Shown in pieces: positions 48,209 through 64,000 of a DNA stretch of 64,000 nt (position 1 is its first letter; each line of letters opens with the position of its first letter). A program made the translations under genes and the position numbers. Below the pieces are notes generated by a model. That model saw only the letters and a program-made list of their open reading frames with translations. It searched no databases and was not told the origin of the DNA. Source of the stretch: Clostridia bacterium (GTDB lineage: Bacteria > Bacillota > Clostridia > Oscillospirales > CAG-272); the NCBI GenBank assembly GCA_017466375.1, contig JAFTUH010000037.1:2782-66781 (forward strand), read 5' to 3'.

Positions 48209-48213
48209 TACTG

Positions 48214-50529: not shown

Positions 50530-50534
50530 AACAG

Positions 50535-50565
50535 AAAAAACTGCCGTGAAATGCGGCAGTTTTTC
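50535..50565. terminator. Bidirectional terminator
   Basis: AAAAAACTGCCG-TGAAAT-GCGGCAGTTTTTCG. Confidence 0.8.
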
Positions 50566-50567
50566 GT

Positions 50568-50900: not shown

Positions 50901-50920
50901 ATTTACCTCCAATATAGTCT

Positions 50921-50984
50921 ACTTAAATTAAGTATACTTACAACATTATACCACAAAATAATCTTAAAATATACTTAAATTAAG
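50921..50984. promoter_or_regulatory. Two copies of palindrome ACTTAA-A-TTAAG(T) in the divergent SLOG/RHH intergenic region (candidate operators)
   Basis: ACTTAAATTAAGT at 50921-50933 and ACTTAAATTAAG at 50973-50984. The second is nested in AATCTTAA...TTAAGATT. The region is very AT-rich. Confidence 0.45.
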
Positions 50985-51000
50985 ATTATTGGAGAAAATA

Positions 51001-51192
51001 ATGCGAGATAAGAAGAATAAGCACCTTGGTATTGAGATCGATCCGGAATTGCATTATAAATTGCACTATATTTCCAAATATGAAGGCAGAAGTGCCAACG
51101 GAGAGATTTTGTACCTGATCCGAAAGGAAATCCGTGCCTTTGAAGTGCGTGAGGGTGAAATTGTATATCCGCCCGCAGATGATGCGCAGTAA
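51001..51192 (+). CDS. Ribbon-helix-helix (Arc/CopG-like) DNA-binding protein (63 aa)
   Basis: The pattern KHLGIEIDPELHYKLHYISKYEGRSANGEILYLIRKEI fits a beta-strand followed by two helices, as in the RHH fold. The ATG sits 6 nt after GGAG. Confidence 0.55.
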   Translation: MRDKKNKHLGIEIDPELHYKLHYISKYEGRSANGEILYLIRKEIRAFEVREGEIVYPPADDAQ

Positions 51193-51200
51193 ACAAACAG

Positions 51201-51238
51201 AAATCCCCGATAGATTTTTCGTCTATCGGGGATTTTTT
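51201..51238. terminator. Bidirectional terminator
   Basis: AAATCCCCGATAGA-TTTTTC-GTCTATCGGGGATTTTTT. Confidence 0.8.
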
Positions 51239-53073
51239 CAGTATTCGATTTTGAGAATCTCGACCGTGTCATCCGTGTCGGGAACGTACTCGATTTTCTC
51301 GATTTCCTTTTCAGGATGCGGGTTTTTGTACGCGGTCGTGTACCACGTTTTGCCGCCCTCCACGCACGGGAGCGTCGAATACGATACCTCCAGCAGGGCA
51401 GAGGACGCGCGGTTCAGCGTGTCTGGATCAAACGACTCCGCGTCATCCGCCGTGGCGTACGGGATTGCGCTGTTTGTAATATTCGTGCCGTATTTGACCT
51501 CAAACAGTGCCGTCGTTCCGTCCGTGTACGTCACACGGTAATTGCCCATGTGATAGAGCTCGTCTTCAATAAATACGCCGTCGTAGAACACCTTGTACGG
51601 GATATTTTTCTCCGTCGTGTGCGTGATTCGGATGTAACCCTCATCCGCCTTGCCGTAGTGGAGACGGAATGCTTCCGTAAACGTGCGCGTGACGATCTCG
51701 TTTTGACGGTCATTGTCATACGTTTTGCTCCACAGGGCAAACGCGCCGAATATCAGGTGGAAGTATTGGCAGTTTCTCTGCATGTATTCCGGATGATTGG
51801 AACCCCAGTTCGAGCAGAAGCCGCCCTTCATGCCGTATCTGCGTCGGTCGCGCCAGTACTGCACGCCATCCGCACACATATTGCCGTAAATTGCCTCGTA
51901 TCCGTGCGTGTGGTAGACGAAATCGTACTGCATCCCGAAAGCGTAGTACCAGTGCAGCATCAGAATGTCCTTCGGCAGCTTGCTCTGGCAGGTGTAGACG
52001 GCGGGGTATTTCCACTTCGGATGGCGGTATGCCTCCGATCCGCCGAAGGTGGATCCGTTCTGCGTGACGACGGGCAGGAGCTTCTCGCCCCACATCGCGG
52101 TACGGATGCCGCGCTCCGTCAGATACGCGTGGATTCGCTTTACGTCCTCCGCGTAGATGTCATCGGGACGGCTGTCCTTGCATCTGGGGCAGCGGCACAT
52201 CGTGTAGAATTCGTCATGGCCGATGTTCACAATCGTCGGCTCAAACACCGCAATGACCTCATCCATGATGTCGAAGACGAGCTTGTACACGTCGGGATGA
52301 TTCGGGCAGTACGTGTCCGGATACGGATCCTCCTCGCGCTCTCTCAGCTCGGGATGCGCCAGGCAGATGTAGTCGGAATGCGACAGCGTCGGTACTTCGG
52401 GATATACATCCAGTCCCCGTGCACGGCAGTACTCGATCAGAGTGCGCACCTCGTCCTGCGTCAGAATGTCGCCCTCGCCGTTGTCGGTGTGGATGGAGTT
52501 TTTCTGCCAATCGTATCCCATTTGGATCTCATGCGCACGACCGGAGTAGCGGTGCGTATCCGCGGCGAACGCCGCCCATGCCTCATTGATTTCGGGATGC
52601 CGCTTGTACTCCATGGCGCCGCCAATCTCAAGAAAGACACAGTTGTATTTGTAATAGACGATTGTATCGATCATGTCAAAGAATTCTTTGAACGATTTCC
52701 GACCGGGAAGGTACACGCGATAGCCGCGGAATGCGCAGTCGGGGGCATCCTCCAGCTGACAGATACACATTTCGCCTGTGAGGTTCATCTGCAGAAGCGT
52801 GACGGCGGCATAGATGCGTGCGCGCTCCGTTCCGCCGTGCAGGATCACTTCCGATTCCGTGACAGTGATTGCGTAAGCTTCCTCGCCGGTGACGGAAGCA
52901 CCTTCCGGCAGATGATGTTCGAAACGGATGGTTTTCACCGTTCCGTCGGCAGTGCCGTGTTCGGTGATGCATGTACGTGTAATCTCGGCTGCGTAACCTG
53001 TACCGTTTATGGCAGCGTTGTCAGAAAGCGAGACAGTTTGTCCTTTTTTCCAAATTTGCGGTTCGAAAAACAT
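51238..53073 (-). CDS. Glycoside hydrolase family 20-like protein (putative beta-N-acetylhexosaminidase)
   Basis: FRGYRVYLPGRKSFKEFFDMIDTIVYYKYNCVFLEI resembles the start of the GH20 TIM barrel. NIGHDEF resembles the HxGGDE catalytic region. No signal peptide. Confidence 0.6.
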   Translation of the reverse strand: MFFEPQIWKKGQTVSLSDNAAINGTGYAAEITRTCITEHGTADGTVKTIRFEHHLPEGASVTGEEAYAITVTESEVILHGGTERARIYAAVTLLQMNLTGEMCICQLEDAPDCAFRGYRVYLPGRKSFKEFFDMIDTIVYYKYNCVFLEIGGAMEYKRHPEINEAWAAFAADTHRYSGRAHEIQMGYDWQKNSIHTDNGEGDILTQDEVRTLIEYCRARGLDVYPEVPTLSHSDYICLAHPELREREEDPYPDTYCPNHPDVYKLVFDIMDEVIAVFEPTIVNIGHDEFYTMCRCPRCKDSRPDDIYAEDVKRIHAYLTERGIRTAMWGEKLLPVVTQNGSTFGGSEAYRHPKWKYPAVYTCQSKLPKDILMLHWYYAFGMQYDFVYHTHGYEAIYGNMCADGVQYWRDRRRYGMKGGFCSNWGSNHPEYMQRNCQYFHLIFGAFALWSKTYDNDRQNEIVTRTFTEAFRLHYGKADEGYIRITHTTEKNIPYKVFYDGVFIEDELYHMGNYRVTYTDGTTALFEVKYGTNITNSAIPYATADDAESFDPDTLNRASSALLEVSYSTLPCVEGGKTWYTTAYKNPHPEKEIEKIEYVPDTDDTVEILKIEY

Positions 53074-53105
53074 AAAAGAACCCCTCCGGAACGTGTGTTT
53101 TATCC

Positions 53106-53134
53106 ATTATAACAAAACCCTCCTGCAATTGCAA
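53106..53134 (-). promoter_or_regulatory. Promoter TTGCAA-17-TATAAT for the GH20-like gene, embedded in a hairpin that can also terminate the upstream lipoprotein gene
   Basis: The minus strand reads AAACCCTC-TTGCAA-TTGCAGGAGGGTTTTGT-TATAAT. The AAACCCTC/GAGGGTTT stem is followed by a T-rich stretch. Confidence 0.5.
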
Positions 53135-53171
53135 GAGGGTTTCTGATTTTTTGAAAATATTTACCTGCGAA

Positions 53172-54056
53172 TCAGCCGATTCGATAGAAATTGCTCAGGA
53201 TATCCGCAGTTGTATCCTCAATGTAGGTGGTAACGGCGATGTTGGCGAGATACCCGTCGCATTTCACACTGAGCATCAGCTGATAGACACGGATGCCGCT
53301 GATCTGTGCGGTGGTGCGCATAGCGGGTACAGTCTCCCCGTCCAAAATCACGTCGACGATTTCGGAGGAGAAATCCGTATAGCCCATGTTCTCGAACATC
53401 TCGCGCATATAGGGGACGGCAGCCTTGTAATTCTCAGCGACGTCCAGCAGGGCGAGCTGCAAAGCATTCAGCTTCTCGAGATTTACGTTGATGTTGTTCA
53501 GCTCATCCGCGTCCATGGCGAGCATATCATAGAAAACCGTTGCATTTTCGATCAGTTGGCGGTAGGTGTCGCCGGCAAGCTCGGCCGTCGCGTTGTTCAT
53601 AATACGGATCTGCTCTTCGGAAGAGTAACTCCAGCCGTCGGGAATCAAGCATCCCAGCCCGATAAGGGAGTTTTCGTACCGTCTTCCCGCAACTGTGCCG
53701 AGTACATCGTTTCCGTCATCAATCGGGCTTTCGGGTGTCTGATCCGCAGGCTCGGTTTCAGGCTCGGTTTCAGGCTCGGTTTCGGGCTCGGTTTCGGGCT
53801 CGGTTTCGGGCTCGGTTTCGGGCTCGGTTTCGGGCTCGGTTTCGGGCTCGGTCTCAGGCTCGGTTTCGGGCTCGGTTTCGAGCTCGGTTTCGGGCTCGGT
53901 CTCAGGCTCGGTTTCCTCGGCTGTGGGATCGTCCGTTTGTTCAATTTCATCCGAGGGGTCTGCTTCATTTTCGTTGTAATTCGGCTCGCACGCGCACAAA
54001 GAAAAGACGAGAAGGGCGGCAAGAACGAGTGCAAAAATTTTGTTTTTTAGCTTCAT
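53172..54056 (-). CDS. Lipoprotein with a long (T/L)EPE acidic repeat linker
   Basis: Lipobox LVFSLCAC after [16 protein letters not shown]. About 15 TEPE units are followed by a ~190-aa globular domain. The start was trimmed from the track's 54332 to 54056. Confidence 0.7.
53749..53916. repeat. 14 tandem 12-bp units (GGCTCGGTTTCR) encoding the TEPE repeat
   Basis: Read directly. The units are near-perfect with a few A/G and T/C substitutions. Confidence 0.9.
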
Positions 54057-54093
54057 GATGGTCTCCTGTGTATAAGATAGACATATTATAGCA

Positions 54094-54468
54094 TCAGCGA
54101 CGGCGCTTGTCAAGCAGATATTCGGTGAGGGCGAACAGGGCACATCCCGCGCCGTAGCAGAGAATATCGATCCATGAAAAGGAGCGTCCGAGCAGGGTAG
54201 AGAAAAACGCGCTGTCGGCAAGACCGATGAGACGAACGAAATCGAAATACTGCAGGGCTTCGACAGCGGCGGCAAAGAGGAATACGTACAGCGGCAGAAG
54301 ACGGATGCCTGCCGGAAAAAAGATACGCACAAAGGCGCAGATCAGCACCGTCACGAGGATATCCCCGCCGTACGGACGAAGGAAAGCGTCCCGCACGAAC
54401 AGTGCGATCAGAATCTCACAAAGGAGGAGGAGGGCAAAAGCCGCCGCGTAGGAAATTCGTTTTTTCAT
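54094..54468 (-). CDS. DUF2809-like small membrane protein
   Basis: The N-terminal LIALFVRDAFLRPYGGDILVTVLI motif is characteristic of DUF2809. It has four TM helices and an ATGA overlap with the GH25 gene. Confidence 0.6.
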   Translation of the reverse strand: MKKRISYAAAFALLLLCEILIALFVRDAFLRPYGGDILVTVLICAFVRIFFPAGIRLLPLYVFLFAAAVEALQYFDFVRLIGLADSAFFSTLLGRSFSWIDILCYGAGCALFALTEYLLDKRRR

Positions 54469-55226
54469 TTTCCGACCTCCTTGCAGCGCGGATATGCGGT
54501 AAATTCCTCCGCCGTGCCCGCGAATACGTTCAGATCGATGAATTTCTCCTCGCCGCGGTATCCGTCAAGGATTCCTCGGTTGGTGAATTGCCAGAACGTC
54601 CACGCGCGTCCGTCTGTGAGAGTGGGGGCGCTCGTCACGTTGCGGATCCAGATATCGTACGGTGTGAAATCGTGCGCCAGATACAGCGCGTAGGATTCCT
54701 CCGTTGCGTACAAAATCGGGCGGACGCCATAGTGCGCCTCCAGCATATCCAGAAGCGTATGCAGTTGTGCCGTAACCGTATCCGTCGGCGGCGGGTTTTG
54801 ATCGTACCCGCCGTAGAATTCGAGATCGATCACGGGCGGAAGCATACCGGCAAATGCAGGGACGGTGCGGATGAAGTTTTCTGCCTGCGTCTCCCCTGCG
54901 CTGTCAAAGCTGAAAAAATGATACGCACCGACAGCGAGATCGGTTGCGCGTGCGTTTGTAAAATTCTCCTCAAAGCACGGATCGGTATAGGAGGAGCCTT
55001 CCGTCGCCTTGATGAAAGCAAAATCGATCCCCTCGCCGGCGAGCGTCTGCCAGTCGATCTCCCCCTGATACCGGGATACGTCCACACCGCGTACGGGATA
55101 TTTCTCCCGCGGCGGATTATTCAGAAGGACGACGCCGTGATACACCGCCCATGCGTACAGAACTGCTGATAGAATCAGCCAAAGAGCAAGAATAGGCGCC
55201 CAGATTCGCCATCGGATCCGTTTCAA
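54465..55226 (-). CDS. GH25 family lysozyme (muramidase) with N-terminal membrane anchor
   Basis: GVDVSRYQGEIDWQTLAGEGIDFAFIKATEG is the GH25 signature. It appears to use a TTG start at 55226. Confidence 0.85.
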   Translation of the reverse strand: MKRIRWRIWAPILALWLILSAVLYAWAVYHGVVLLNNPPREKYPVRGVDVSRYQGEIDWQTLAGEGIDFAFIKATEGSSYTDPCFEENFTNARATDLAVGAYHFFSFDSAGETQAENFIRTVPAFAGMLPPVIDLEFYGGYDQNPPPTDTVTAQLHTLLDMLEAHYGVRPILYATEESYALYLAHDFTPYDIWIRNVTSAPTLTDGRAWTFWQFTNRGILDGYRGEEKFIDLNVFAGTAEEFTAYPRCKEVGK

Positions 55227-55383
55227 AGAATCACCGCCTTTGTATCATTATAGCACACACGCGATACGTTGTCAATAAAACGCCGGGATTGCCGAAAATG
55301 CAGGATTTATTGATCGAAAATTCATTTTTGCGCATAAATTCTGTTAAAAAACCAAAAAAATACAAAAAAACGAAAAACAGGCG

Positions 55384-55412
55384 TTGACAGCCTCCGTTTT
55401 CTCGTGTATAAT
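55384..55412 (+). promoter_or_regulatory. Perfect consensus promoter TTGACA-17-TATAAT
   Basis: -35 at 55384-55389, an exact 17-nt spacer, and -10 at 55407-55412. It lies ~30 nt upstream of the RBS/ATG at 55443. Confidence 0.7.
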
Positions 55413-55442
55413 AGAAGTAACAAAAATACAGGAGGCAAGTTT

Positions 55443-55820
55443 ATGGTTCAGTCGTTACCGCTTTTGCTGCTTGATAACAGCAGTATGATGAGTGTCCTCA
55501 ACGAGGGCGAGTTTCAGTGTCACAACCTCACCTTTGAAGAAGCGAAGCACATCCTGGAAATCCATAATGCGCAGGATATTCTGCAGTGCTTCAACGATCA
55601 TGGCATCGAGACGATCATTTACGATTATCTCGGTATCGAGAAGCGCGAGCTGACTTATAAGCATATCCGCAATATGCGTGTGGGGCAGGATGCTATCGTA
55701 TTCAAACTGTACATTACGCCGTCGGAGACACAGCCGATCCTGCAGGCGGATGACGGCGTGGAAGCGAAGAAGATTCAGAACGTGTACGTTTACTGCCAGT
55801 ATCTCACCCGCTTGAAGTAA
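55443..55820 (+). CDS. Small cytoplasmic protein (125 aa), loosely resembling the DUF1874 (STIV B116-like) family
   Basis: AGGAGG RBS. The pattern LLLLDNSSMMSVL...LTFEEAKHIL...NDHGIETIIYDYLG...VGQDAIVFKL.. parallels my recollection of B116 (FLTNAFSINML...IGHDSTINLVNTL...EGDEALIIM). This is a weak call. Confidence 0.35.
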   Translation: MVQSLPLLLLDNSSMMSVLNEGEFQCHNLTFEEAKHILEIHNAQDILQCFNDHGIETIIYDYLGIEKRELTYKHIRNMRVGQDAIVFKLYITPSETQPILQADDGVEAKKIQNVYVYCQYLTRLK

Positions 55821-55831
55821 AGCGACAAAGG

Positions 55832-55861
55832 AAAAAGCCTTCCGTACGGAAGGCTTTTTGT
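55832..55861. terminator. Bidirectional terminator
   Basis: AAAAAGCCTTCCG-TAC-GGAAGGCTTTTTG lies between convergent genes. Confidence 0.8.
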
Positions 55862-55862
55862 A

Positions 55863-58800
55863 TTACCGGGGCTTTTCGGGAGTGTCGAACGGAGTCGGTC
55901 CCTTCAGCGTTGTGGTGGTAGACAGCGGATACTTATCGGCGTATTTGATGAATCCGAAGCCGTATTCATCCTGGCGCATGCGGGTGATGATCTCCTCACG
56001 CTTGCCGATCACGGCTTCACCGATCAGGTATGCGTACTGGATCTCGCTCCATTTGGACATACCCTCGTAGATGAGGAGGTTATCCGCCTTGCCGTACATC
56101 TTCTTGATTGCCTTGGCATCCCAGTTGACGTACTGCCAGATATGCGTCAGCTCGTGCACCATGGTCATTGTTGCCTTGATGCGCGGCGATCCGTTTTCGA
56201 TCAGGATGGAGTAACCGTCCTTGTCCTTGATCGCGACGCCGAGCACGCGTCCGTCTGCCTTGCCGGTCGGGACGAACGTCTTGCCGAGTCTGCGATGCAG
56301 CTTCTTGGAGTTGACCATCTTGATATTGATCGGATCGTTTATGAGCACGCCGTAGAAGGTTCTCATATTGCGTGCGACCGTTTCGTAGAGTTCTCTGAAC
56401 TCTGCCTCGGACTTGATCGCCGTTCTGCCGCAGGCAATGCAGCGTTCGCGTCCGTCTGCAAGAACCTCGTATTCGGTGCCGGTGAGCTCCGCACCGCAGA
56501 AGTCGCAGAATCTTGCGCCTGCACGGTTCGGATCAAAGCTCTGCTCGATTCTCTCCGCCTCGTTTTTGCCGAGACGTGCCTGTTCGAGGAAGTTGTTGCC
56601 GTAGCCGAGCTTCAAAAGGAAGTCGAGCGTTTCCCTCGTACGGACGGATTCGGGAAGTGTCTTGCCGCCGTAGAGCAGGTAGTAGCTTTCGTGATACGGC
56701 TTCCGGGTGTGATCCGAAATGGCAGAAACCTTTGTTGCACCGTCGCCTTCAAACTCGATCGAGTCGTCTGCGCTGAACAGCATCATGCTGGCGTTGTTCT
56801 GCGTGTTGTCCCCATCATCCGGATCGGTGTCCGTGTCCGTGCTGTCCGCCTCCGGTGCCGGCTCGGTTTTCTTTTCCTTGCGCTTGAAGAGGTTGCTGAA
56901 GAAACCGCCCTTCTTTTTGGGCTTTTCAGCTTCGGGTGCAGGCTCTGCGGGAGTATCCGTAGGATCGGCAGGTGTAGCCACAGGCTCTGCCGGGGTATCC
57001 GCAGGATCGGTAGGCTCTGCAGGGATATCCGCAGGATCGGTAGGCTCTGCCGGGGTATCCGTAGGATCGGTAGGCTCTGCAGGGGTATCCGTGGGATCGG
57101 TAGGCTCTGCCGGGGTATCCGTAGGATCGGTAGGCTCTGCCGGGGTATCCGCAGGATCGGTAGGCTCTGCCGGGGTATCCGCAGGATCGGTAGGCTCTGC
57201 CGGGGTATCCGTGGGATCGATAGGCTCTGCCGGGGTATCCGCAGGATCAGCAGGTACAGCCACAGGCTCTGCCGGCTTTTTCTTTTTCCGCTTGAACAGC
57301 TTTTTGAAGAAATCGCAGATAGCGCCGATGATCTTCATCAGTCCCTTGCGTTCCTTTTTCGGCTTCTCTGCCGCGGCAGGATCGCCGGTGCCGGTACCTG
57401 TACCGCCGGTCGGTGCCGGTGTAGGATCGGGATCAGCACCTGTGCCCTCACTCTTTTCGAGCGTATCGAAGTGCCAGTTCAGATAATCACAGATGATTGC
57501 GAAGATGCGATGCAGGTTTCTCTCCACGCTGACAAGCAAGCCGATATCCAGCTGGCTGTCCTCGATGATGTAGATACTGCTGTCGGATACGTTTTCACCC
57601 GTGAGCGAGTACGTGTACGGAGCTTCTGCGGTGCAGGAGTTGACCGCAGCGATCATGCCCTGATTATCCGCGTACAGCGTGCGGAACACCTCGTTCATCA
57701 GAAGAACGATCGTGTTGAGTACGTCTTTCGGCACATCCATCGTCTCAAAATCGATCTTGAGAATGTGCTTGTTCAGGTACTCACGTTTCGGCACACCGTT
57801 GATGGTGATGCACTTCGCTGTTTCGAAATCGTTGTAGCGGAGCATATTCCAGTATGCGGGCGTTTCCACGGAGATATCTGCGTACTGTCTCGTGACCTTG
57901 ATGCCGCCGATGTCTCTGACGTGACCCATCATAGTGGAGTCAAAAGCAGCGTGCAGCGTGTAGTTGCGCACCTGGCGATACTGCGGTCTGCCCGTGATAT
58001 GATCTGCCGCACGGCGTACGACAACTTTGCCGTCGCTGCTCAGGCGAAGCATCTCGTAATACTTACCGCCGAAGGTGAAGAACTGACCGGGCAAATGCTT
58101 CTGGAAGACGTGTCCGCGCAGCTCCGTACCGAGGTACTGATTCGTACCGTTTTCATCCTCTGCGATGTATTCGGCAGAGCAAAGATCGCCGAGGAACGCG
58201 TTGATGAAGCACGGATCCGTAATGCTGTAGAGCGTCTCCATGCAGCCGGTTTTGTACGAATACGCACGCTTGGATTTGATGATATCCTTCGTGAATTCGT
58301 ACTCTTTCCCGCCGTGACGTACGGTGAGCGTATCTTTGATCGCCTCACCGCTAAAGGATGCGGCGGCGTCTGCGGAGCACTTGCAGATGCCGCGCCACAG
58401 TGCGTCGGGAATATCCTCGCTGTCCATGTGGATGACCGAAAGCTCGCGGTGAAGCTCGTCTTCGGAGACGTGGCAGGAGCTGAGGCGCAGGCAGATCCGA
58501 TAGATCAGATTGCGCTCGGTATCCGCATAGTCCGCGACGATGTAGGGGATCGCCTTGGAGTCAGTGTTGAAGATGGTGTCATTGTCCGCCATGTATCCTT
58601 TGAGCAGGTAGTCGGAGGAGATGACGTTGATGAAGCCCTGCTGCTTTGCGCGGGTGGAGAACTCGCGCTTGACCTCGAACATATTGAAGCTTTCATCCTC
58701 AACGGTCATGTATTTGTGCTTTTCAACCGTTGCGTCCCACATATTCGCCGAGGTGCGGAACACCTCATCCAGATACGCCTGATGCGTCGGCAGGGATGCA

Positions 58801-60506
58801 TAGGAGAGCAGATCGTGGTGATACTGCTTTACGATCCAGTGCATATCGGTGACGGGGAACGACTCACCGCCGTACCACGTCGTTTGCGGGATCTGGTTTT
58901 TCAGTGCGGCGAAGGAGAGCTCCGTACCCACGCCGAGATAGCGGGAGATGTTCGGGAGCAGGCGGTGCTGGAGATTTTCGTTGTCGGCATCCCAACACAT
59001 ATAGGAGGAAGCGCCGCCGGGCTTATTCGTAGCGGATACTTCTTCAATGCTTGTCATCAGGATATGAGACAGCGCATCGACGATACCGTCGCAGTTTTTA
59101 TCCGTCGAGCAGAATACGGGACGGTTTCCGCCGCGTCGGCAGTAGCGCACGATCGAGTTCAGACCGATCTGGGCGGTTGCCACGAGCTTGGACGGCTCGA
59201 TCAGCATCACGAAATCGACCTCGGCAAAGAAGCTTTCGTTTGCCTCATGCAGCTTGAGATCGTGTACGCTGGAGCGTGTGATGATACCTACGTCCAGGTT
59301 CTGCTCCTGCCCGTCCAGAACGCCGATGTTCCACAGCGTCGGGATATGGTTGACAGAGGAAAGACCCTTGCGGCACCAAGCCTCCACACCCTCTTCGATC
59401 GCGTGGCGTCCGAGGATGATCAGCACCTTTTTGTGACGCAGGATGGCGCGGTTCATCGGGTAGAAGATGTACGGAATCAGATCGTAGTAGAAGGGGTTGT
59501 TGAACAGGATGCTCTTACCCTTCAGCAGATCGAGACCGGACATCAGATAGCTCTGGTCAATCTCCAGCCCGCGCGCCATCTTTTTCCGCATGAATTTGCC
59601 GTATGCTTCCACGGCTACGCCGTCATCCTCCTCCAGATCGGAGAGGACTTCGTCATTTGTGCGGGGGGAGAGGAGCGCGTTGTTGTTCGTGGTATTTTCG
59701 CTGAGCAGCTTATCCCCGAACAGGCGGCGCAGGAACTTACGCATCAGCGAGTAGTCAGCGACCATTTCGGTCTCATCCTTCTCACCGGTAATCGTGTTCT
59801 TTTCCACCTTGGGGAATTCGCCGTCCAGGAAGAAATAGATCTCTCCGACGAGGATCACGCTGAATACGGGGTAGTAGAGAGACGCAATGATCTCATAGTC
59901 ATACAGGAACGCCGTGACACCGATACCGATGACGGCAAAGATGAACGACACGATGTAGAGCGTCTTCATCAGCGTGATGCCCTGCTTGAAGTGGGGCTTG
60001 ACGTACCAGCGGTTTTTCAGCTCGTTCTTGTAATACGCGCTCGAGGCAAAGAATTCGAACACACGGTTTCCTTCTCTGGTAAACAGGAGCAGGAAGCGTG
60101 CGATGAACGTCTTGAAAAGCACGTATCCGAGAATGATCAGTGCATTGGAGAGAATCTCCGCCCAGAAGGCGAGGTTGAGATCCTTGAGGAGGTTTTTGAG
60201 TGCCGCAGACAGACGCAGCAAAAGATCGGAAAGATCCGTGAGCAGTCCGTCAAACAGCGTTCCGACCCACAGTGCCAGCTGCTGGATCCAAAGCGGCAGC
60301 TGCGTCATCACAAAGACGAGCAGCGCGTTGATCTTGACGAGCAGCAGAGCCGCAGCAATACAGAAGATCAGTGCCGCAAACGGCATAAAGCACTGGCGGT
60401 GGCGGATGGATTTTTTGAGATTCGCCTTACCGTTGAGCAGTGCCAGCAGGATAAACGGCACGGTCATCAGACACACTCTGAGGAGAAAAAATATCTTATC
60501 AATCAT
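55863..60506 (-). CDS. Giant uncharacterised protein (1547 aa): ~6 N-terminal TM helices, ~900-aa cytoplasmic region, Pro/Thr/Asp repeat linker flanked by Lys-rich amphipathic segments, C-terminal zinc ribbon + DA1-like HExxH metallopeptidase domain
   Basis: Uninterrupted ORF, with an ATG overlapping the upstream gene's stop by 8 nt. CDFCG...CIACG zinc ribbon. MVHELTHIWQY...IYEGMSKWSEIQY resembles the DA1-like peptidase pattern HEMMHAW...EEGICQV. I found no Walker A motif. Confidence 0.75.
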   Translation of the reverse strand: MIDKIFFLLRVCLMTVPFILLALLNGKANLKKSIRHRQCFMPFAALIFCIAAALLLVKINALLVFVMTQLPLWIQQLALWVGTLFDGLLTDLSDLLLRLSAALKNLLKDLNLAFWAEILSNALIILGYVLFKTFIARFLLLFTREGNRVFEFFASSAYYKNELKNRWYVKPHFKQGITLMKTLYIVSFIFAVIGIGVTAFLYDYEIIASLYYPVFSVILVGEIYFFLDGEFPKVEKNTITGEKDETEMVADYSLMRKFLRRLFGDKLLSENTTNNNALLSPRTNDEVLSDLEEDDGVAVEAYGKFMRKKMARGLEIDQSYLMSGLDLLKGKSILFNNPFYYDLIPYIFYPMNRAILRHKKVLIILGRHAIEEGVEAWCRKGLSSVNHIPTLWNIGVLDGQEQNLDVGIITRSSVHDLKLHEANESFFAEVDFVMLIEPSKLVATAQIGLNSIVRYCRRGGNRPVFCSTDKNCDGIVDALSHILMTSIEEVSATNKPGGASSYMCWDADNENLQHRLLPNISRYLGVGTELSFAALKNQIPQTTWYGGESFPVTDMHWIVKQYHHDLLSYASLPTHQAYLDEVFRTSANMWDATVEKHKYMTVEDESFNMFEVKREFSTRAKQQGFINVISSDYLLKGYMADNDTIFNTDSKAIPYIVADYADTERNLIYRICLRLSSCHVSEDELHRELSVIHMDSEDIPDALWRGICKCSADAAASFSGEAIKDTLTVRHGGKEYEFTKDIIKSKRAYSYKTGCMETLYSITDPCFINAFLGDLCSAEYIAEDENGTNQYLGTELRGHVFQKHLPGQFFTFGGKYYEMLRLSSDGKVVVRRAADHITGRPQYRQVRNYTLHAAFDSTMMGHVRDIGGIKVTRQYADISVETPAYWNMLRYNDFETAKCITINGVPKREYLNKHILKIDFETMDVPKDVLNTIVLLMNEVFRTLYADNQGMIAAVNSCTAEAPYTYSLTGENVSDSSIYIIEDSQLDIGLLVSVERNLHRIFAIICDYLNWHFDTLEKSEGTGADPDPTPAPTGGTGTGTGDPAAAEKPKKERKGLMKIIGAICDFFKKLFKRKKKKPAEPVAVPADPADTPAEPIDPTDTPAEPTDPADTPAEPTDPADTPAEPTDPTDTPAEPTDPTDTPAEPTDPTDTPAEPTDPADIPAEPTDPADTPAEPVATPADPTDTPAEPAPEAEKPKKKGGFFSNLFKRKEKKTEPAPEADSTDTDTDPDDGDNTQNNASMMLFSADDSIEFEGDGATKVSAISDHTRKPYHESYYLLYGGKTLPESVRTRETLDFLLKLGYGNNFLEQARLGKNEAERIEQSFDPNRAGARFCDFCGAELTGTEYEVLADGRERCIACGRTAIKSEAEFRELYETVARNMRTFYGVLINDPINIKMVNSKKLHRRLGKTFVPTGKADGRVLGVAIKDKDGYSILIENGSPRIKATMTMVHELTHIWQYVNWDAKAIKKMYGKADNLLIYEGMSKWSEIQYAYLIGEAVIGKREEIITRMRQDEYGFGFIKYADKYPLSTTTTLKGPTPFDTPEKPR
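56941..57275. repeat. About 10 tandem 30-bp units encoding PAEPTDP(A/T)DT
   Basis: The unit TAGGCTCTGCCGGGGTATCCGCAGGATCGG is repeated nearly perfectly inside the 1547-aa ORF. Confidence 0.9.
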
Positions 60507-62502
60507 ACAGCTCTTCTCTCCTTACAGAAATGGTTTTCACAAAATCCACGGGGATCGTGATCGGGAGACCGGAATTCAGAAAATCGATCGTTTTGACGTT
60601 GTTGGCGGAGTAGGGGATCGGATACACATACTCAACCGGTCGCTCGAAGTTGTAATCGTACTCCGTTATGGAGGAGAAATCGCAGTCGCATCCGTCCACC
60701 ATGAACTGACCGAACACCTCGCGTGTGCGCGCTTTAGCGGTGTCGATGTCGAGGATATGCTTCTTGTACAGGATGACCTTGGCGATATCCGGATCCTTAT
60801 AATCCGCAGAGGCGTTGATGACGGAGAATCCCCGACGGACGTTGCAGACGTGTCCGAGGTAGACGGAATACTTCGCCATAGCACCTTCAACGTCGCCGTC
60901 AATGCCGTGCATCGTGCGGTTATACGAATCGAAGCGCTTCGTCAGTGCACGTCTCAGGAAGAACAGCGTGACGAGAGCGATCAGACCAAACAGCCCGAGT
61001 GCGGACAGCGTAATAATGAGGGACGCGGAGATATTGAAGAAATTGGACGCGGCATTTTTGTAGAAGAGCGTGAAGAAGCCGATGACGTACGCGATAAGCG
61101 CGGCGATACCGATGGCAACGGTCGTGCGGCGCGTCATGCGTTCCTCGATCTTCTTACGGATGGAAGCATCTTCCTTCTTCAGACGATCGTAGTACTCGTC
61201 TTCCTCATAGAGATCGGGCAAATCCAGCGCGAGCAGTCCGAGCTCCTCCGTCGCGATGTGCTCTTTCACATCCTCGATCTGGAACTCGTTCAGAAGGCTG
61301 ACCTTGTCGAGATCTCTTTCCTGATTGTCGCGTGCATCCTGTGCGGCGCGTGTCAGGGAGCGTCTGGACTGCTTGAGGAAGCGGTGCAGGGTCTTTTTGG
61401 ATTTGGTGTATTCAGTCTGCCAGATATCCTCGTCATGCGCAGGGCAGTCGGTAGCGAGACCGATCCGTGCCTTGGAGACGAAGAGATCACTCCTGTCGAA
61501 ATCATTGGTGATTGCAACGGGGATATTGATTTTTGCACAGAAGATTTTCTCAGCCTCGGTATCCGTCAGCTTGACTGGCTGTTTTTCCTTCAGAACCTGG
61601 ATGCGCTGTGCGATCAGATCCTTGGTGGCATTCAGCTTTGCTTCATAGGCGAAGAGCAGCTTGCGCAGGGCTTCTTCGTCATTCTCGCATTGGAGGCTGT
61701 AGACGCGATCCGGCGAGAGCGTGCTGAGCGGGATATCGTTGATTGCCAGAAGGAGGGTGGCATACAGAAAACGGATGGAATCAAACAGGTAGTCGCGGTG
61801 TGTTTTCGGCAGGATGTCAAAGACGAGATAGCGCATCTTGTCAAAGTACATATTCCTGTCATAAAACCGGGAATACTCGTTTTCGGTATGCGAGGACCAT
61901 GCAATCTCAAAATCGTTCTCCGAAACGGTGGTGGTACGCTTTGAGATGCAGATGATCTCCTTCGGGGCGGCTGTGTACAGCGGCTCGCCTCCGCGGATAG
62001 CGGCGCGAAGCTGCTGTTTTTTGTAGAACTGTGCCAGATAACGCTCAAAAGCAGGATCGTCCGTCGTTTCCGTTTCGGGTGTTGTGACGGTCGGCGCCTC
62101 ACAGAAGAATGTAGTCAGTCTGGTCAGCGGCTGCCGGGAAGCCTGCTCATAAGCGTGAAGAAGCTTTTCGTGTTCGCTGCGCTGGTGCGCTTCGTATTGT
62201 TCGGCGATGCCGTCATCGACCTCTCCCACGATTGTCTCAGAAAAGGGTTCGGGCTTGAAATCCACGGTGTCGAAGGGGTTTCGCAGTGCGAGACCGCTTT
62301 CGTCACAGATGATGACAGCGCGCCATTCTTTACGTCTGCCTACGGTATCGGGCAGAGACGGAAGCATTTCCGCAAAGCGTTCACCAGCCGTATTCCATTC
62401 GCAAACAGCAAGATCCTTGGAGTCCGTCAGCGGTTTCAGAAACAGCCGGTACTCCTCGATTCTTTCCAGATATTCTTTTTGCGCGATGATAACGGTGAAC
62501 AA
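60499..62502 (-). CDS. Uncharacterised 667-aa protein with coiled-coil region and two TM helices near residue 470-530
   Basis: Long ORF with an apparent TTG start 10 nt after GGAGG. TM helices are VAIGIAALIAYVIGFFTLFY and LIITLSALGLFGLIALVTLFFL. I recognise no enzymatic motif. Confidence 0.7.
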   Translation of the reverse strand: MFTVIIAQKEYLERIEEYRLFLKPLTDSKDLAVCEWNTAGERFAEMLPSLPDTVGRRKEWRAVIICDESGLALRNPFDTVDFKPEPFSETIVGEVDDGIAEQYEAHQRSEHEKLLHAYEQASRQPLTRLTTFFCEAPTVTTPETETTDDPAFERYLAQFYKKQQLRAAIRGGEPLYTAAPKEIICISKRTTTVSENDFEIAWSSHTENEYSRFYDRNMYFDKMRYLVFDILPKTHRDYLFDSIRFLYATLLLAINDIPLSTLSPDRVYSLQCENDEEALRKLLFAYEAKLNATKDLIAQRIQVLKEKQPVKLTDTEAEKIFCAKINIPVAITNDFDRSDLFVSKARIGLATDCPAHDEDIWQTEYTKSKKTLHRFLKQSRRSLTRAAQDARDNQERDLDKVSLLNEFQIEDVKEHIATEELGLLALDLPDLYEEDEYYDRLKKEDASIRKKIEERMTRRTTVAIGIAALIAYVIGFFTLFYKNAASNFFNISASLIITLSALGLFGLIALVTLFFLRRALTKRFDSYNRTMHGIDGDVEGAMAKYSVYLGHVCNVRRGFSVINASADYKDPDIAKVILYKKHILDIDTAKARTREVFGQFMVDGCDCDFSSITEYDYNFERPVEYVYPIPYSANNVKTIDFLNSGLPITIPVDFVKTISVRREELYD

Positions 62503-62564
62503 TGATTCATCACCTCCGTATTACCTGCCTGCAGTCGTGCCGCAGGCAGGGATACCGTACATCA

Positions 62565-64000
62565 TCAGACCAGTTTTTCCTTCATCTTGTCGATCATGCT
62601 GACGTAATCGGAGGGCTCGGGCGTCGTCTCGATGACGTGCGTGATCTTTCTGAGGATCGTGTCAACAACCGGGTTGTCCTTGGGAGACTCAAAGCCGCCC
62701 TGGAGCTTCGGATATTTCTTGTAGTTCTTCATCAGGATGTTGTACTGCTCCTCAAGGATCTTGCAGAGCATGAACTTGACGTCATCCTTGTTCTCCCACT
62801 GGAGCAGCTCATCCTCAAACGTCTTGATGATGGCGTCGATGATAGCAGAGATCTCACCGTTGAAGCGCTTGTTGCTGGGCAGAGAAGCGTAGTAGTATAC
62901 GGGAATCTCGAAGAGACTCGTCTTCTCGCCTGCGGGAACGTCCAGCGGCTTATCGTGCTCGTCCTCACGGCTTTCGGGGATCGCAAAGTTCTTGACGTTC
63001 TCGTAGAATTTCGTCTTATTGTAGCTTGCGTGGTGCATGCGGTCCTTGTAGCTCATCTTTGCCTTGACCAGCTCGATATCGCTGACGATGAACGGGCTGA
63101 TGTACATAGCGTCTACGATCTCATAGAACTCGTCACACGGCGTGTTGTTGGAGACGGAGAGATTGATAAAGCGCTCAGCGGAGTTGAAGTATTTGTATAC
63201 CTTTCTGTCATCCGCAACGACGGAGAGCTTCTCACGGCGGATCACGTCATAGACGAGACCGTAGATGACCGCCTGATGGATGCGGAGCATCTCGCGCTCC
63301 TGATGACCGAAGTCAAGCTCAGGCATCACGGCGATGTTGTCCCAACGCTTGTCGATATGCGTGGAGATCTTGGCACCCTTGGTGGAATCGGGACCGATAT
63401 CGCGTGCGTAGGTGACGTACGCGTTGTGGTACAGACCGCCCTTCTTCTTCGTGGTCTCTGTCGTCTGCGGTGCGGCAAACTTGTTCAGTTTGTCGGGCGT
63501 GAGGTTGTAGAGTGCGTTGAAGAAGCGCAGCTCGTACTTGGAAACGCTGTCGACCGCATTGCCCTTCGGCATCAGATCGTGTACGCGGTACGTTCTCATG
63601 TCGGTGAGAGATTTGTTGTATGCACAGAGGCTGATCTCGCGGGATTCCACGTTGCGCATACGCTGTACGCTCGGAGCAGCCAGACGCTGACCCATAGCGA
63701 TCGTCTCGAGAATGTGGCGGACGTTGTCCTCGTTTGTGACCTTGTCGAATACCTTGTCATCGCCCTCGCTCTGTTCGCGGGTCTTGATACGGGCAAGCAG
63801 GCGGTTCTCAAGAGCGATTGCCTCGATGATGTTTACATCCAGGTTGGTGCACTTGCGGCGGACGTCTTCCTTGAAGAAGCCGATCAGCACGTCGTCAAAG
63901 ATGTCGATGCGCTTATCTTCCTCGATAACGTCCATAGAGCTGATCTCACGTTCGAATTCGACGTTCTTCTTGACGGCGTCGAAAATGTCGCCGTTGGCAG
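62565..64000 (-). CDS. C-terminal >=477 aa of a large uncharacterised soluble protein, with its N-terminus outside the window
   Basis: The frame stays open from 63935 to the window edge (..ANGDIFDAVKKNVEFEREISS-MDVIEED..), and there is no RBS before the internal ATG. No motif is recognised in the visible part. Confidence 0.7.
   Translation of the reverse strand, partial: ANGDIFDAVKKNVEFEREISSMDVIEEDKRIDIFDDVLIGFFKEDVRRKCTNLDVNIIEAIALENRLLARIKTREQSEGDDKVFDKVTNEDNVRHILETIAMGQRLAAPSVQRMRNVESREISLCAYNKSLTDMRTYRVHDLMPKGNAVDSVSKYELRFFNALYNLTPDKLNKFAAPQTTETTKKKGGLYHNAYVTYARDIGPDSTKGAKISTHIDKRWDNIAVMPELDFGHQEREMLRIHQAVIYGLVYDVIRREKLSVVADDRKVYKYFNSAERFINLSVSNNTPCDEFYEIVDAMYISPFIVSDIELVKAKMSYKDRMHHASYNKTKFYENVKNFAIPESREDEHDKPLDVPAGEKTSLFEIPVYYYASLPSNKRFNGEISAIIDAIIKTFEDELLQWENKDDVKFMLCKILEEQYNILMKNYKKYPKLQGGFESPKDNPVVDTILRKITHVIETTPEPSDYVSMIDKMKEKLV

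What the first reader, a model, noticed from the sequence alone, without database searches (positions are those of the whole stretch)
55863..64000. Tightly coupled operon of three very large uncharacterised proteins: soluble protein (>477 aa), 667-aa bitopic protein, 1547-aa polytopic protein with a protease tail
About 8.1 kb of the minus strand is filled by three consecutive long ORFs for which I recognise no family apart from the C-terminal ~220 aa of the last one.
- Genes 2 and 3 overlap by 8 nt (TATGATTGA), which implies translational coupling and probably fixed stoichiometry.
- Genes 1 and 2 are separated by 62 nt containing a 9-bp GC-rich stem-loop (62524-62550) with no U-tract.
- Gene 2 appears to use a TTG start.
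- Two of the three products are membrane proteins: two TM helices in gene 2 and about six in gene 3.
- I found no P-loop, nuclease, TIR, SIR2 or other familiar effector motif in the visible sequence.
- The segment VLIILGRHAIEEGVEAW...DFVMLIEPSKLVATAQ in gene 3 faintly recalls SF2-helicase motifs Ia/II/III without a Walker A. That would suggest a degenerate helicase-like core.

This architecture is a large cytoplasmic partner, a membrane adaptor, and a giant membrane protein with a tethered zinc protease. It is the kind seen in membrane-associated conflict or defence systems and in envelope-remodelling machines, but it does not match any named system I know. One possibility is that the unseen N-terminus of gene 1 carries the NTPase (tubulin/FtsZ-like, dynamin-like or AAA+). 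The window cannot show this.
Basis: partly seen in the sequence, partly recalled or inferred. Interest (0 to 1): 0.85.

Follow-up and report, generated by a model that had tools for sequence, protein, structure and literature searches.

The report
Known FtsZl1 tubulin-like membrane operon
The three big genes are the visible part of a four-gene operon built around a very divergent tubulin/FtsZ-like GTPase (FtsZl1); the operon was catalogued by comparative genomics in 2010 but never studied experimentally, and its giant membrane protein turns out to hold a helicase-shaped core with no ATP-binding loop, tethered to a zinc protease.

Summary
Three tightly packed minus-strand ORFs fill 55863-64000, with the stated overlap, spacer hairpin, TTG start and membrane helices.

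It is not an unnamed system. A near-identical contig (L082) extends the window. It shows that gene 1 is a 1193-aa FtsZl1 protein (Pfam Tubulin_2) and that a vWA/MIDAS surface protein is encoded just upstream.

Makarova & Koonin (2010) list exactly this cassette: vWA, FtsZl1, family "B5", family "B12". They annotate B12 as a membrane-associated zincin protease fused to a Zn finger. One of their examples, Pseudoflavonifractor capillosus ATCC 29799, is one of my syntenic loci.

All four genes keep the same order in 65 of 65 spanning loci, all from gut Clostridia.

New here:
- The central 760 aa of gene 3 fold like the YprA/MrfA DUF1998 SF2 helicase (Foldseek E 1.5e-22) but have no P-loop.
- The protease module is a separate, translationally coupled gene in half of the loci.
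- The gene 1-gene 2 hairpin is conserved as a structure while its sequence differs.

Function remains untested. My best guess is an envelope-spanning GTPase scaffold with a protease output. Verdict: new member of a known but uncharacterised kind; moderate interest.

The parts
62565..64000 (-). g1, C-terminal 477 codons of a 1193-aa FtsZl1 protein (tubulin/FtsZ-superfamily GTPase). The N-terminal Tubulin_2 domain lies beyond the window end.
   Evidence: Full length read from L082:4361-7942, which is 99.7-100% identical to window 45951-64000. Tubulin_2 E 1.7e-55 and 2.7e-55 in orthologues. No TM segment.
62524..62550 (-). Intercistronic GC-rich RNA hairpin between g1 and g2, with no U tract.
   Evidence: A GC-rich stem of 9 bp or more lies in the same spacer in 19 of the 32 loci with a 30-120 nt gap; about four more hold a shorter or interrupted GC hairpin. 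The stem sequences are unrelated between species.
62513..62517 (-). Shine-Dalgarno GGAGG for g2, 10 nt upstream of the TTG start at 62500-62502.
   Evidence: ACGGAGG is conserved upstream of g2 in relatives.
60499..62502 (-). g2, 667 aa, family 'B5' of Makarova & Koonin. Cytoplasmic alpha/beta domain, long helical stalk, TM hairpin, small C-terminal beta domain.
   Evidence: AF2 model has pLDDT 85. No significant fold match in PDB or BFVD. BACCAP_04122 = B5.
60964..61119 (-). g2 transmembrane hairpin (residues 462-513).
   Evidence: Hydropathy scan. Helices 458-482 and 488-567 in the model. Basic residues flank both ends, which by inference puts both large domains in the cytoplasm.
60499..60506 (-). 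8-nt overlap of the g2 stop and the g3 start (translational coupling).
   Evidence: The overlap is -8 nt in 33 loci and -11 nt in 30 loci.
55863..60506 (-). g3, 1547 aa, family 'B12' (membrane-associated zincin protease fused to a Zn finger).
59832..60506 (-). g3 N-terminal membrane anchor (residues 1-225, five to six TM helices).
57462..59744 (-). g3 central domain (residues ~255-1015). YprA/MrfA-like SF2 helicase fold without Walker A.
   Evidence: AF2 model of orthologue P0066 (59% identical over the aligned 71% of g3): pLDDT 80, pTM 0.76. Foldseek hits 6znp MrfA at E 1.5e-22 over 823 columns, then Hel308, PolQ and Brr2 at ~1e-6. No P-loop in g3 or at a conserved position in 52 homologues.
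56712..57461 (-). g3 disordered acidic P/T/D/E-rich linker (residues ~1016-1265), flanked by two basic amphipathic motifs.
   Evidence: pLDDT below 50 in the model. Net charge -32. The helix at 1056-1072 has hydrophobic moment 0.68, above the protein's 99th percentile. F1067, F1071 and K1074 are nearly invariant.
56982..57248 (-). 30-nt tandem repeat, 8.9 copies, encoding PAEPTDP(A/T)DT units inside the linker.
   Evidence: L082 has one copy fewer (30-nt gap; P0053 is 1537 aa against 1547 aa).
56430..56507 (-). Four-cysteine zinc ribbon (C1334, C1337, C1356, C1359).
   Evidence: The cysteines are invariant in 52 and in 33 sequences. DZR and Zn_Ribbon_1 give sub-threshold hits.
55866..56429 (-). 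Zincin-like metallopeptidase domain: HELTH at residues 1451-1455 (nt 56142-56156) and Glu1481.
   Evidence: H, E, H and E are conserved in 32 of 33 tails. Sub-threshold hits recur to DUF6782 (32/33), DUF6055 (30/33), BSP (25/33) and DA1-like (10/33).
55832..55859 (-). Intrinsic terminator closing the operon (AAAAAGCCTTCC-GTAC-GGAAGGCTTTTT). It is bidirectional, shared with the convergent ORF 55404-55820.
   Evidence: Read directly from the sequence.

Best explanation
Identity (near certain): the locus is the distal three quarters of a vWA-FtsZl1-B5-B12 cassette. This is the predicted 'FtsZl1-centred' system of Makarova & Koonin 2010.

Components:
- g0 lies just outside the window. It is a secreted protein, anchored by one C-terminal TM helix, with a vWA domain carrying a complete MIDAS motif, a beta-rich stalk and a ~150-aa cytoplasmic tail.
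- g1 is a cytoplasmic tubulin/FtsZ-superfamily GTPase. It is the only NTPase in the operon.
- g2 and g3 are membrane proteins whose large domains face the cytoplasm.
- g3 combines a helicase-shaped core that cannot bind ATP in the canonical way, a long acidic disordered tether with membrane-seeking amphipathic helices, and a Zn-ribbon plus HExxH...E peptidase.

Mechanism (inferred, not shown):
1. The four proteins form one envelope-spanning complex.
2. g0 binds an extracellular ligand through its metal site.
3. g0's cytoplasmic tail, together with g2 and g3, recruits g1 to the membrane and controls its GTP-dependent assembly there.
4. The output is local proteolysis by the tethered zincin, with or without membrane or envelope remodelling.
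5. The spacer hairpin and the overlapping stop/start codons set the ratio of the abundant polymer subunit to its membrane partners.
For: Identity:
- L082 is 99.7-100% identical to window 45951-64000 and supplies g0 and the full g1.
- Tubulin_2 scores E ~1e-55. The T1 loop GVGGTG and the T4 loop SGGTGSG are intact.
- In g0, D43-x-S45-x-S47, T121 and D148 are invariant in 26 orthologues. VWA_2 gives a sub-threshold hit at the same place in 6 of 10.
- The same cassette is listed for 'Bacteroides' capillosus ATCC 29799 and Ruminococcus lactaris in the 2010 supplement. That strain equals L044.

One functional unit:
- All four genes occur in the same order in every one of 65 spanning loci, at 30-77% identity.
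- g2/g3 overlaps of 8 or 11 nt occur in 63 loci.
- The protease module is a separate ORF, mostly with an 8-nt overlap, in 36 of 72 loci.

GTPase as the core: the tubulin-like domain is by far the best conserved part, at 60-99% identity against 25-76% for g0 and 31-57% for g2.

Protease as the output:
- The catalytic residues are kept in 32 of 33 tails.
- g3 variants add a transglutaminase-like (papain-fold) domain.
- Another FtsZl1 operon, in B. caccae, carries a cysteine protease.

Topology and membrane contact.
Against: - No experiment exists for any FtsZl1 system, and no paper beyond the 2010 prediction turned up.
- No solved structure is detectable by sequence.
- According to Makarova & Koonin, FtsZl1 lacks recognisable T6-H7/T7 elements and the FtsZ/tubulin C-terminal domain. 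Polymerisation is therefore itself unproven.
- The operon has no lipid- or cell-wall-modifying enzyme.
- The specifically YprA-like fold of g3 points towards nucleic acids, and this model does not use that.
- Flanking genes are not conserved.
- Both subclades of the cassette contain genera from the same families, for example Acetatifactor and Acutalibacteraceae. That looks like an accessory, horizontally moving module.
- Complex formation, ligand, protease substrate and the role of the hairpin are all inferences.
Confidence: 0.45

Rival explanations
1. A membrane-embedded anti-phage or anti-plasmid immune system. The ATPase-dead YprA-like domain of g3 sits at the inner face of the membrane and recognises entering foreign DNA or replication intermediates; alternatively g0 senses adsorption outside the cell. 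g1 polymerisation amplifies the signal. The zincin is the effector, by abortive infection or by cleaving a phage protein.
For: - The best fold match of g3 is specifically MrfA/YprA (E 1.5e-22, against ~1e-6 for other SF2 helicases). That family is central to DISARM, Dpd, Druantia and ARMADA.
- The layout is modular: sensor, NTPase, swappable protease or transglutaminase modules.
- P. capillosus carries two different FtsZl1 cassettes.
- Flanks are variable, and some loci carry integrase, XRE + ImmA or TIR-LRR neighbours.
- The distribution does not follow taxonomy.
- g0 evolves fast.
Against: - The three window-encoded proteins (g1 fragment, g2, g3) have no PADLOC hit.
- The cassette is absent from the 2025 YprA census, which does not mention tubulin, vWA, membrane or peptidase partners.
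- There is no Walker A, so no translocation.
- The 4-Cys DUF1998 cluster is not seen in the core.
- The window's neighbours are ordinary sugar-metabolism genes.
- No nuclease or other typical effector is present.
- No enrichment statistics could be computed.
Confidence: 0.25
2. A DNA-positioning or DNA-handling device. By analogy with the TubZ and PhuZ tubulins, g1 filaments move or tether DNA, which the membrane-anchored helicase-like domain of g3 grips without unwinding. Possible settings are sporulation, division or DNA uptake.
For: - The helicase-like fold has OB, CON and DUF1998-like beta-rich parts.
- Other divergent prokaryotic tubulins segregate DNA (established knowledge; TubZ is cited).
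- The stretch at residues 805-849 is invariant and rich in basic residues.
Against: - There is no centromere-binding (TubR-like) protein and no plasmid or phage context.
- An extracellular vWA receptor and a protease have no obvious role in segregation.
- The cassette is patchy rather than universal in these families.
Confidence: 0.1
3. Pure membrane remodelling or vesicle biogenesis, as originally proposed in 2010. The protease would act only as a maturation or quality-control factor, and the helicase-like domain as an inert scaffold.
For: - This is the original genomic-context argument.
- Three of the four proteins are membrane proteins.
- g3 has amphipathic membrane-binding helices.
- The long helical hairpin of g2 faintly resembles dynamin and alpha-pore-former stalks (E 0.03-0.1, not significant).
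Against: - No component has demonstrated membrane-bending activity.
- The fold matches for g2 are not significant.
- The strict conservation of the protease active site and of the helicase-like core suggests they are more than scaffolds.
Confidence: 0.15

Closest known systems
FtsZl1-centred predicted membrane-remodelling system (Makarova & Koonin 2010, Biol Direct 5:33; PMC2875224)
   Same: Same four gene families in the same order: vWA (COG2304), FtsZl1, 'B5', 'B12'. BACCAP_04124-04121 of P. capillosus ATCC 29799 and RUMLAC_01529-01526 are listed in their Additional file 5, with B12 annotated as a membrane-associated zincin protease fused to a Zn finger. My locus L044 is that strain, and its gene lengths match.
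   Different: Nothing differs in kind: this is another member, from an uncultured gut Clostridia species. The 2010 catalogue does not note the helicase-like core of B12, the split and fused forms of B12, or the intercistronic hairpin.
YprA/MrfA (DUF1998) SF2 helicases: MrfA, and DrmA/DrmB of DISARM, DruE of Druantia, Dpd, ARMADA
   Same: The overall multi-domain fold of g3 residues ~255-1015 matches. Foldseek against 6znp gives E 1.5e-22, probability 1.00, 823 aligned columns, and TM 0.55-0.63 normalised to MrfA. The order of elements is RecA-like alpha/beta, a second alpha/beta domain, a helical part, then a beta-rich 'canopy'.
   Different: - No Walker A. The motif II position reads (L/I)EPS rather than DExH.
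- The core has no conserved 4-Cys cluster.
- No sequence-level similarity is detectable.
- g3 is fused to a polytopic membrane anchor and a peptidase, and sits in a tubulin-like operon. The 2025 YprA census records none of these.
FtsZ with its membrane tethers (FtsA, ZipA, SepF; MinD-type amphipathic helices)
   Same: A tubulin-superfamily GTPase is encoded with membrane proteins. Short basic amphipathic helices (GLMKIIGAICDFFKKLFKRKKKK, GGFFSNLFKRKEKK) resemble membrane-targeting sequences (the resemblance is recalled from general knowledge and was not tested).
   Different: - FtsZl1 is ~1200 aa with a long helical C-terminal extension.
- It lacks FtsZ_C, and its T7 region is not recognisable.
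- Its partners are unrelated to FtsA, ZipA or SepF.
- Per Makarova & Koonin, FtsZl1 genes typically sit in genomes that also carry a conventional FtsZ; I did not check this for the present genomes.
Zn-finger-linked zincin peptidases (DA1-like, WLM/SprT, ImmA/IrrE M78, DUF6782, DUF6055, BSP)
   Same: An HExxH motif with a Glu 26 residues downstream, preceded by a zinc ribbon. Weak hits to these Pfam families recur.
   Different: No family reaches its gathering threshold (best E 1e-5). The tail appears to be a zincin family without its own Pfam model. No solved relative is found by sequence.

Membership tests
FtsZl1 / Pfam Tubulin_2 (PF13809) | N-terminal FtsZ/tubulin-like GTPase domain that matches the family model | tested here: met
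   E 1.7e-55 (L006), 2.7e-55 (L016) and 2.5e-52 (L001), against a cutoff of 27 bits. Precomputed hit on the L082 gene. The domain lies outside the window; it was read from L082, which is 99.7-100% identical in the 18 kb it shares with the window.
FtsZl1 / Pfam Tubulin_2 (PF13809) | GTP-binding signature GGGTG(S/T)G (T4 loop) and Gly-rich T1 loop | tested here: met
   STSSGGTGSG and GVGGTGC in L082 g1. G158-G163 and G19-G24 are invariant in 15 orthologues.
FtsZl1 / Pfam Tubulin_2 (PF13809) | No FtsZ_C or Tubulin_C domain; a long, mostly helical C-terminal extension instead | tested here: met
   No such Pfam hits on full-length proteins or on the visible 477 aa. Coiled-coil content was not computed.
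FtsZl1 / Pfam Tubulin_2 (PF13809) | GTP hydrolysis and polymer formation | not testable with these tools
   Needs biochemistry. No solved structure or experimental paper was found.
vWA/FtsZl1 operon (Makarova & Koonin 2010) | Adjacent gene for a vWA-domain protein with an intact MIDAS motif (DxSxS) | tested here: met
   g0 (L082:1780-4314) has DNSGS. D43, S45, S47, T121 and D148 are invariant in 26 orthologues. VWA_2 hits are below threshold (E 0.002-0.065) at the same position in 6 of 10. The orthologue BACCAP_04124 is assigned to COG2304 by the authors. A profile search against PDB found nothing.
vWA/FtsZl1 operon (Makarova & Koonin 2010) | Co-conserved membrane-associated partner families (here B5 and B12) | tested here: met
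   65 of 65 spanning loci keep the order g0-g1-g2-g3. L044 is the published P. capillosus locus.
YprA/MrfA DUF1998 helicases | Overall fold: NTR, RecA1, RecA2, wHTH, OB-CON-DUF1998 canopy | tested here: met
   Foldseek E 1.5e-22, 823 columns, against 6znp, 6znq and 6zns. The model used is of an orthologue (P0066, 59% identical over the aligned 71% of g3), not of the window protein itself.
YprA/MrfA DUF1998 helicases | Walker A (GxGK[ST]) and DExH Walker B in RecA1 | tested here: not met
   No [AG]x4GK[ST] in g3, and none at a conserved position in 52 homologues. The strand-loop-helix where the P-loop should sit reads SILFNNPFYYD. The motif II position reads LIEPS.
YprA/MrfA DUF1998 helicases | Four-cysteine Zn cluster of the DUF1998/MZB domain | tested here: inconclusive
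   Residues 720-1015 have no invariant 4-Cys set. The only invariant CxxC...CxxC lies after the linker, in the tail. No residue-level structural superposition was available. The cluster is also lost in Dpd helicases.
YprA/MrfA DUF1998 helicases | Sequence match to DEAD, Helicase_C or DUF1998 models | tested here: not met
   No such hit at E <= 1. The g3 profile against PDB returns only low-complexity matches.
Zincin (gluzincin-type) metallopeptidases | HExxH plus a third ligand, Glu about 20-30 residues downstream | tested here: met
   H1451, E1452, H1455 and E1481 are conserved in 32 of 33 tails. The L001 copy is degenerate (HSLTT, SKGM).
Zincin (gluzincin-type) metallopeptidases | Membership of a curated peptidase family | tested here: not met
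   Best hits are DUF6782 (2e-5), DUF6055 (1e-5) and BSP (6e-5), all below gathering scores.
Known anti-phage defence systems (PADLOC-DB v2) | HMM match of any component | tested here: not met
   Only GajA at E 0.0058 on 53 residues of g2. Nothing for g1 or g3.

The most novel reading that the evidence does not exclude
The FtsZl1 cassette is a so far unrecognised kind of membrane-embedded immune or surveillance machine. In this reading an ATPase-dead YprA-family helicase domain, anchored in the membrane, senses foreign nucleic acid, or the outside vWA receptor senses an envelope-bound invader. A tubulin-superfamily GTPase polymerises as the signal amplifier. A tethered zincin executes the response. 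This would link the YprA defence helicases to a prokaryotic tubulin for the first time.
Probability: 0.15. Interest if true: 0.85.

Novelty: new member of a known kind. Interest (0 to 1): 0.4.

Why it matters
FtsZl1 is the most divergent branch of the tubulin/FtsZ superfamily. It is widespread, and the literature and PDB searches here turned up neither a function nor a structure since its description in 2010.

This locus adds nothing new in kind. The analysis does give the field concrete handles:
- The large 'B12' partner is a membrane-anchored, P-loop-less copy of the helicase fold that drives DISARM, Druantia and Dpd.
- It is tied to a conserved, apparently active zinc peptidase that can also be a separate subunit.
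- The g3 core family is large: 674 clusters at 50% identity.
- The cassette is present in a cultured strain, P. capillosus ATCC 29799.

Each proposed step can therefore be tested directly: GTP-dependent assembly, nucleic-acid binding by the dead helicase, and proteolysis.

Tried and rejected
- Direct family searches of the three window proteins (Pfam, NCBIfam, PADLOC, PHROGs) gave nothing above threshold.
- An exact-sequence look-up of g3 failed. Its 99% relative P0053 gave the extension instead.
- Profile or single-sequence searches against PDB found no relative for g3, g2, g1, g0 or the tail (only ribosomal zinc ribbons).
- The g2 model has no significant fold match in PDB or BFVD. I do not build on the alpha-pore-former and dynamin-like hits at E 0.03-0.1.
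- No relative of g1 exists in IMG/VR viral contigs, so I rejected a prophage or viral origin.
- I considered that P0035 shows a distinct shorter architecture. I rejected this: it looks like an internally deleted or chimeric assembly of the normal 1200-aa protein.
- I considered 'TAQ' as helicase motif III. I rejected it on spacing in favour of 'CST'.
- The representative search lists only its best 150 hits, all close family members. I could not see whether active helicases appear among the weak hits.
- The promoter scan upstream of g0 found nothing, so the operon start is undefined.
- The terminator scan missed the obvious g3 terminator.

Full report
**1. The observation**

The minus strand of 55863-64000 carries three long ORFs:
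- g3: 55863-60506, 1547 aa, ATG start.
- g2: 60499-62502, 667 aa, TTG start.
- g1: an open frame from 62565 that runs off the window, with 477 codons visible.

- The g2 stop and g3 start overlap by 8 nt.
- The g1-g2 spacer is 62 nt. It contains a GC-rich hairpin at 62524-62550 with no U tract. RNAfold gives 11 pairs, -27.6 kcal/mol, z = -2.3.
- GGAGG lies 10 nt upstream of the TTG, and no in-frame ATG or GTG is available.
- g2 has a TM hairpin at residues 462-513. g3 has five to six TM helices in its first 225 residues. The visible part of g1 has none.
- There is no P-loop anywhere.
- A hairpin plus T-run terminator at 55832-55859 closes the operon.
- None of the three products reaches threshold in Pfam, NCBIfam, PADLOC or PHROGs.

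**2. Extending the locus**

g3 has a 99%-identical relative, P0053, on an 82.8-kb metagenomic contig. The fetched stretch, L082, is 99.7% identical to window 53852-64000. The differences are one mismatch and one 30-nt gap. It is 100% identical to window 45951-53839. I treat it as the same organism.

L082 shows two things.
- g1 is 1193 aa and has an N-terminal Tubulin_2 domain.
- A further gene, g0 (844 aa), precedes g1 by 46 nt.

In two orthologues with full flanks, Tubulin_2 scores E 1.7e-55 and 2.7e-55, and PF00091 is just below threshold. The GTP-binding loops GVGGTGC and SGGTGSG are present and invariant.

g0 reads as follows:
- A signal peptide, MKRLL...VHA|AK.
- A vWA-like domain whose MIDAS residues (D43-x-S45-x-S47, T121, D148) are invariant in 26 orthologues.
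- A long beta-rich region.
- One TM helix, around residues 668-690, followed by basic residues.
- A tail of about 150 aa that I infer to be cytoplasmic.

Pfam VWA_2 hits the same N-terminal stretch below threshold in 6 of 10 orthologues.

**3. It is a catalogued system**

Tubulin_2 corresponds to the FtsZl1 family of Makarova & Koonin 2010. They describe it this way:
- Usually in an operon with a vWA protein and lineage-specific membrane proteins.
- Proposed role in membrane remodelling.

Their Additional file 5 lists this very cassette:
- 'Bacteroides' capillosus ATCC 29799: BACCAP_04124 vWA/COG2304 (861 aa), _04123 FtsZl1 (1183 aa), _04122 'B5' (658 aa), _04121 'B12' (1435 aa).

That strain is now Pseudoflavonifractor capillosus ATCC 29799. 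It is my locus L044, and the gene lengths match. So the claim that the trio matches no described system does not hold. The system is, however, only a genomic prediction. I found no later functional or structural work:
- Literature searches.
- A 2023 review that still sets the family aside as divergent.
- No solved relative detectable by sequence.

**4. Co-conservation**

A pattern scan of one genome per species found 155 loci. The best 80 are all Clostridia: Oscillospiraceae, Acutalibacteraceae, Lachnospiraceae, Christensenella and others, mostly gut MAGs.

- In every locus whose contig spans the region (65 loci), g0-g1-g2-g3 occur in that order.
- The tubulin-like domain is the most conserved part, at 60-99% identity to the reference. 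g0 (25-76%) and g2 (31-57%) are the least conserved.
- The g2/g3 overlap is 8 nt in 33 loci and 11 nt in 30.
- In 36 of 72 loci the Zn-ribbon/peptidase tail is a separate ORF that usually overlaps the upstream ORF by 8 nt. In the window's clade it is fused. The peptidase is therefore a module of its own.
- Flanking genes are not conserved; the largest flank family occurs in 9 of 65 loci.
- Both subclades contain the same families, which suggests horizontal movement.
- No relative occurs in IMG/VR viral contigs.

**5. g3 (B12)**

I modelled an orthologue with a short linker so that the core and the tail fit in one job. It was P0066, residues 225-1381, 59% identical to g3 over the aligned 71% of g3. 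The model has mean pLDDT 80 and pTM 0.76.

Foldseek against PDB gives:
- The DUF1998 helicase MrfA (6znp, 6znq, 6zns) at E 1.5e-22 to 3e-13, over 765-834 columns, with TM 0.54-0.63 normalised to MrfA.
- Far behind, Hel308, PolQ, Brr2 and Ski2-type helicases at about 1e-6.

The enzyme features are missing:
- No Walker A in g3 or at a conserved position in 52 homologues.
- The strand-loop-helix where the P-loop should sit reads SILFNNPFYYD.
- The motif II strand reads LIEPS.
- 'CST' lies 29 residues after it, at the motif III spacing (the motif assignment is inferred from spacing and predicted strands).
- No 4-Cys cluster is conserved in the core.
- No sequence-level similarity to helicase models is detectable.

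I therefore describe the core as 'folds like' a YprA helicase, not as a member of the family. A 2025 census of YprA helicases in defence systems mentions no tubulin, vWA, membrane or peptidase association.

The rest of g3:
- After the core comes an acidic, P/T/D/E-rich linker of about 250 aa, with net charge -32 and pLDDT below 50.
- The linker includes a 30-nt tandem repeat of 8.9 copies that differs by one copy from L082.
- The linker is flanked by two basic amphipathic motifs. The first has a hydrophobic moment of 0.68, above the protein's 99th percentile.
- The tail has an invariant CxxC...CxxC ribbon and HExxH plus Glu, kept in 32 of 33 orthologues.
- The tail gives only recurrent sub-threshold hits to zincin families: DUF6782, DUF6055, BSP, DA1-like, WLM and M78.
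- The pTM of 0.76 for a model with a 65-residue disordered gap hints that the tail docks on the core. I could not inspect the error matrix, so this is weak.
- The core family is large, with 674 clusters at 50% identity.
- Some members add a transglutaminase-like domain.

**6. g2 (B5)**

The AF2 model (pLDDT 85) has these parts:
- An N-terminal alpha/beta domain.
- Long helices leading into the TM hairpin.
- An 80-residue helix leaving the membrane.
- A small C-terminal beta domain.

No match in PDB or BFVD is significant; the best is E 0.03, to alpha-pore-former and dynamin-like helical hairpins. Its fold remains unassigned.

**7. The spacer hairpin**

- Among the 32 loci with a g1-g2 gap of 30-120 nt, 19 carry a GC-rich stem of 9-20 bp a few bases upstream of the g2 Shine-Dalgarno sequence, and about four more hold a shorter or interrupted GC hairpin.
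- The stem sequences are unrelated between species.
- The subclade with a gap of about 18 nt has none.

This is structural conservation, so the element is real. Its role is inferred: a barrier to mRNA decay, or an attenuator that sets the g0-g1 to g2-g3 ratio.

**8. Mechanism**

What is shown:
- A strictly co-inherited set of one outside-facing vWA/MIDAS protein, one tubulin-superfamily GTPase, and two membrane proteins whose bulk is predicted to be cytoplasmic.
- One of those membrane proteins carries a dead helicase-like core and an apparently active zincin.

What is inferred:
- They form one envelope-spanning complex.
- GTP-dependent assembly of g1 on the g2/g3 platform is controlled by ligand binding to g0.
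- Proteolysis is the output.

I give this 0.45. The rivals are an immune or surveillance system that uses the YprA-like domain as a nucleic-acid sensor (0.25), pure membrane remodelling as first proposed (0.15), and DNA positioning (0.1). None is excluded by my data.

**9. Verdict**

The locus is a new member of a known, uncharacterised kind. The incremental novelty is the helicase-like nature of B12, the modular peptidase and the conserved hairpin. Interest is 0.4.

Noticed in passing
L082:1-585 (upstream of the window end, two genes before g0); also L013:15797-16726 and three other loci: TIR_2 + BspA-type LRR_5 proteins lie within a few kb of the cassette in the window's own strain and in four other species, on either side. 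This could be chance, given how common these proteins are in gut Clostridia, or it could be a weak association.
   Followed up: partly
window 56982-57248 versus L082: The 30-nt repeat in the g3 linker differs by exactly one unit between two otherwise near-identical strains (1547 aa against 1537 aa). The tether length is polymorphic.
   Followed up: yes
window 53749-53915 (ORF 53172-54332, minus strand): A second tandem repeat, 12 nt x 13.9 copies, encodes (ETEP)n in a neighbouring protein that looks like a lipoprotein or secreted protein.
   Followed up: no
window 55384-55820 (+): A convergent 138-aa ORF with no family hit sits behind a perfect TTGACA-17-TATAAT promoter match at 55384-55412. 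It shares the bidirectional terminator with g3.
   Followed up: partly
L001:8001-11728: In this locus g1 is called as two ORFs (437 aa Tubulin_2 part and 575 aa) with a 687-nt gap. The peptidase there has lost its catalytic residues (HSLTT, SKGM). This may be a decaying copy or assembly errors.
   Followed up: partly
L033:2906-4125, L054:3841-4734 and similar loci: An XRE-type HTH + ImmA/IrrE (M78) gene pair lies just upstream of g0 in 5 loci, and a tyrosine integrase in 4 loci. This hints that some copies sit in mobile islands.
   Followed up: partly
L045:4864-5181 and 8 other loci of the distant subclade: A conserved 105-aa putative lipoprotein gene lies immediately upstream of g0. It may be an extra component in that subclade. 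It has no Pfam hit.
   Followed up: no
Makarova & Koonin 2010, Additional file 5 (P. capillosus): The same strain carries a second, different FtsZl1 cassette: vWA, FtsZl1, two hypothetical genes, and a predicted GTPase (BACCAP_01027-01022). The vWA + FtsZl1 core therefore combines with alternative partner sets within one genome.
   Followed up: no
P0344 (1821 aa), P0302 and P0309 (~2000 aa): g3-family members carry extra domains. P0344 has N-terminal Cu_amine_oxidN1 + subtilase S8, which may be a gene-call fusion. P0302 and P0309 have a C-terminal transglutaminase-like core.
   Followed up: partly
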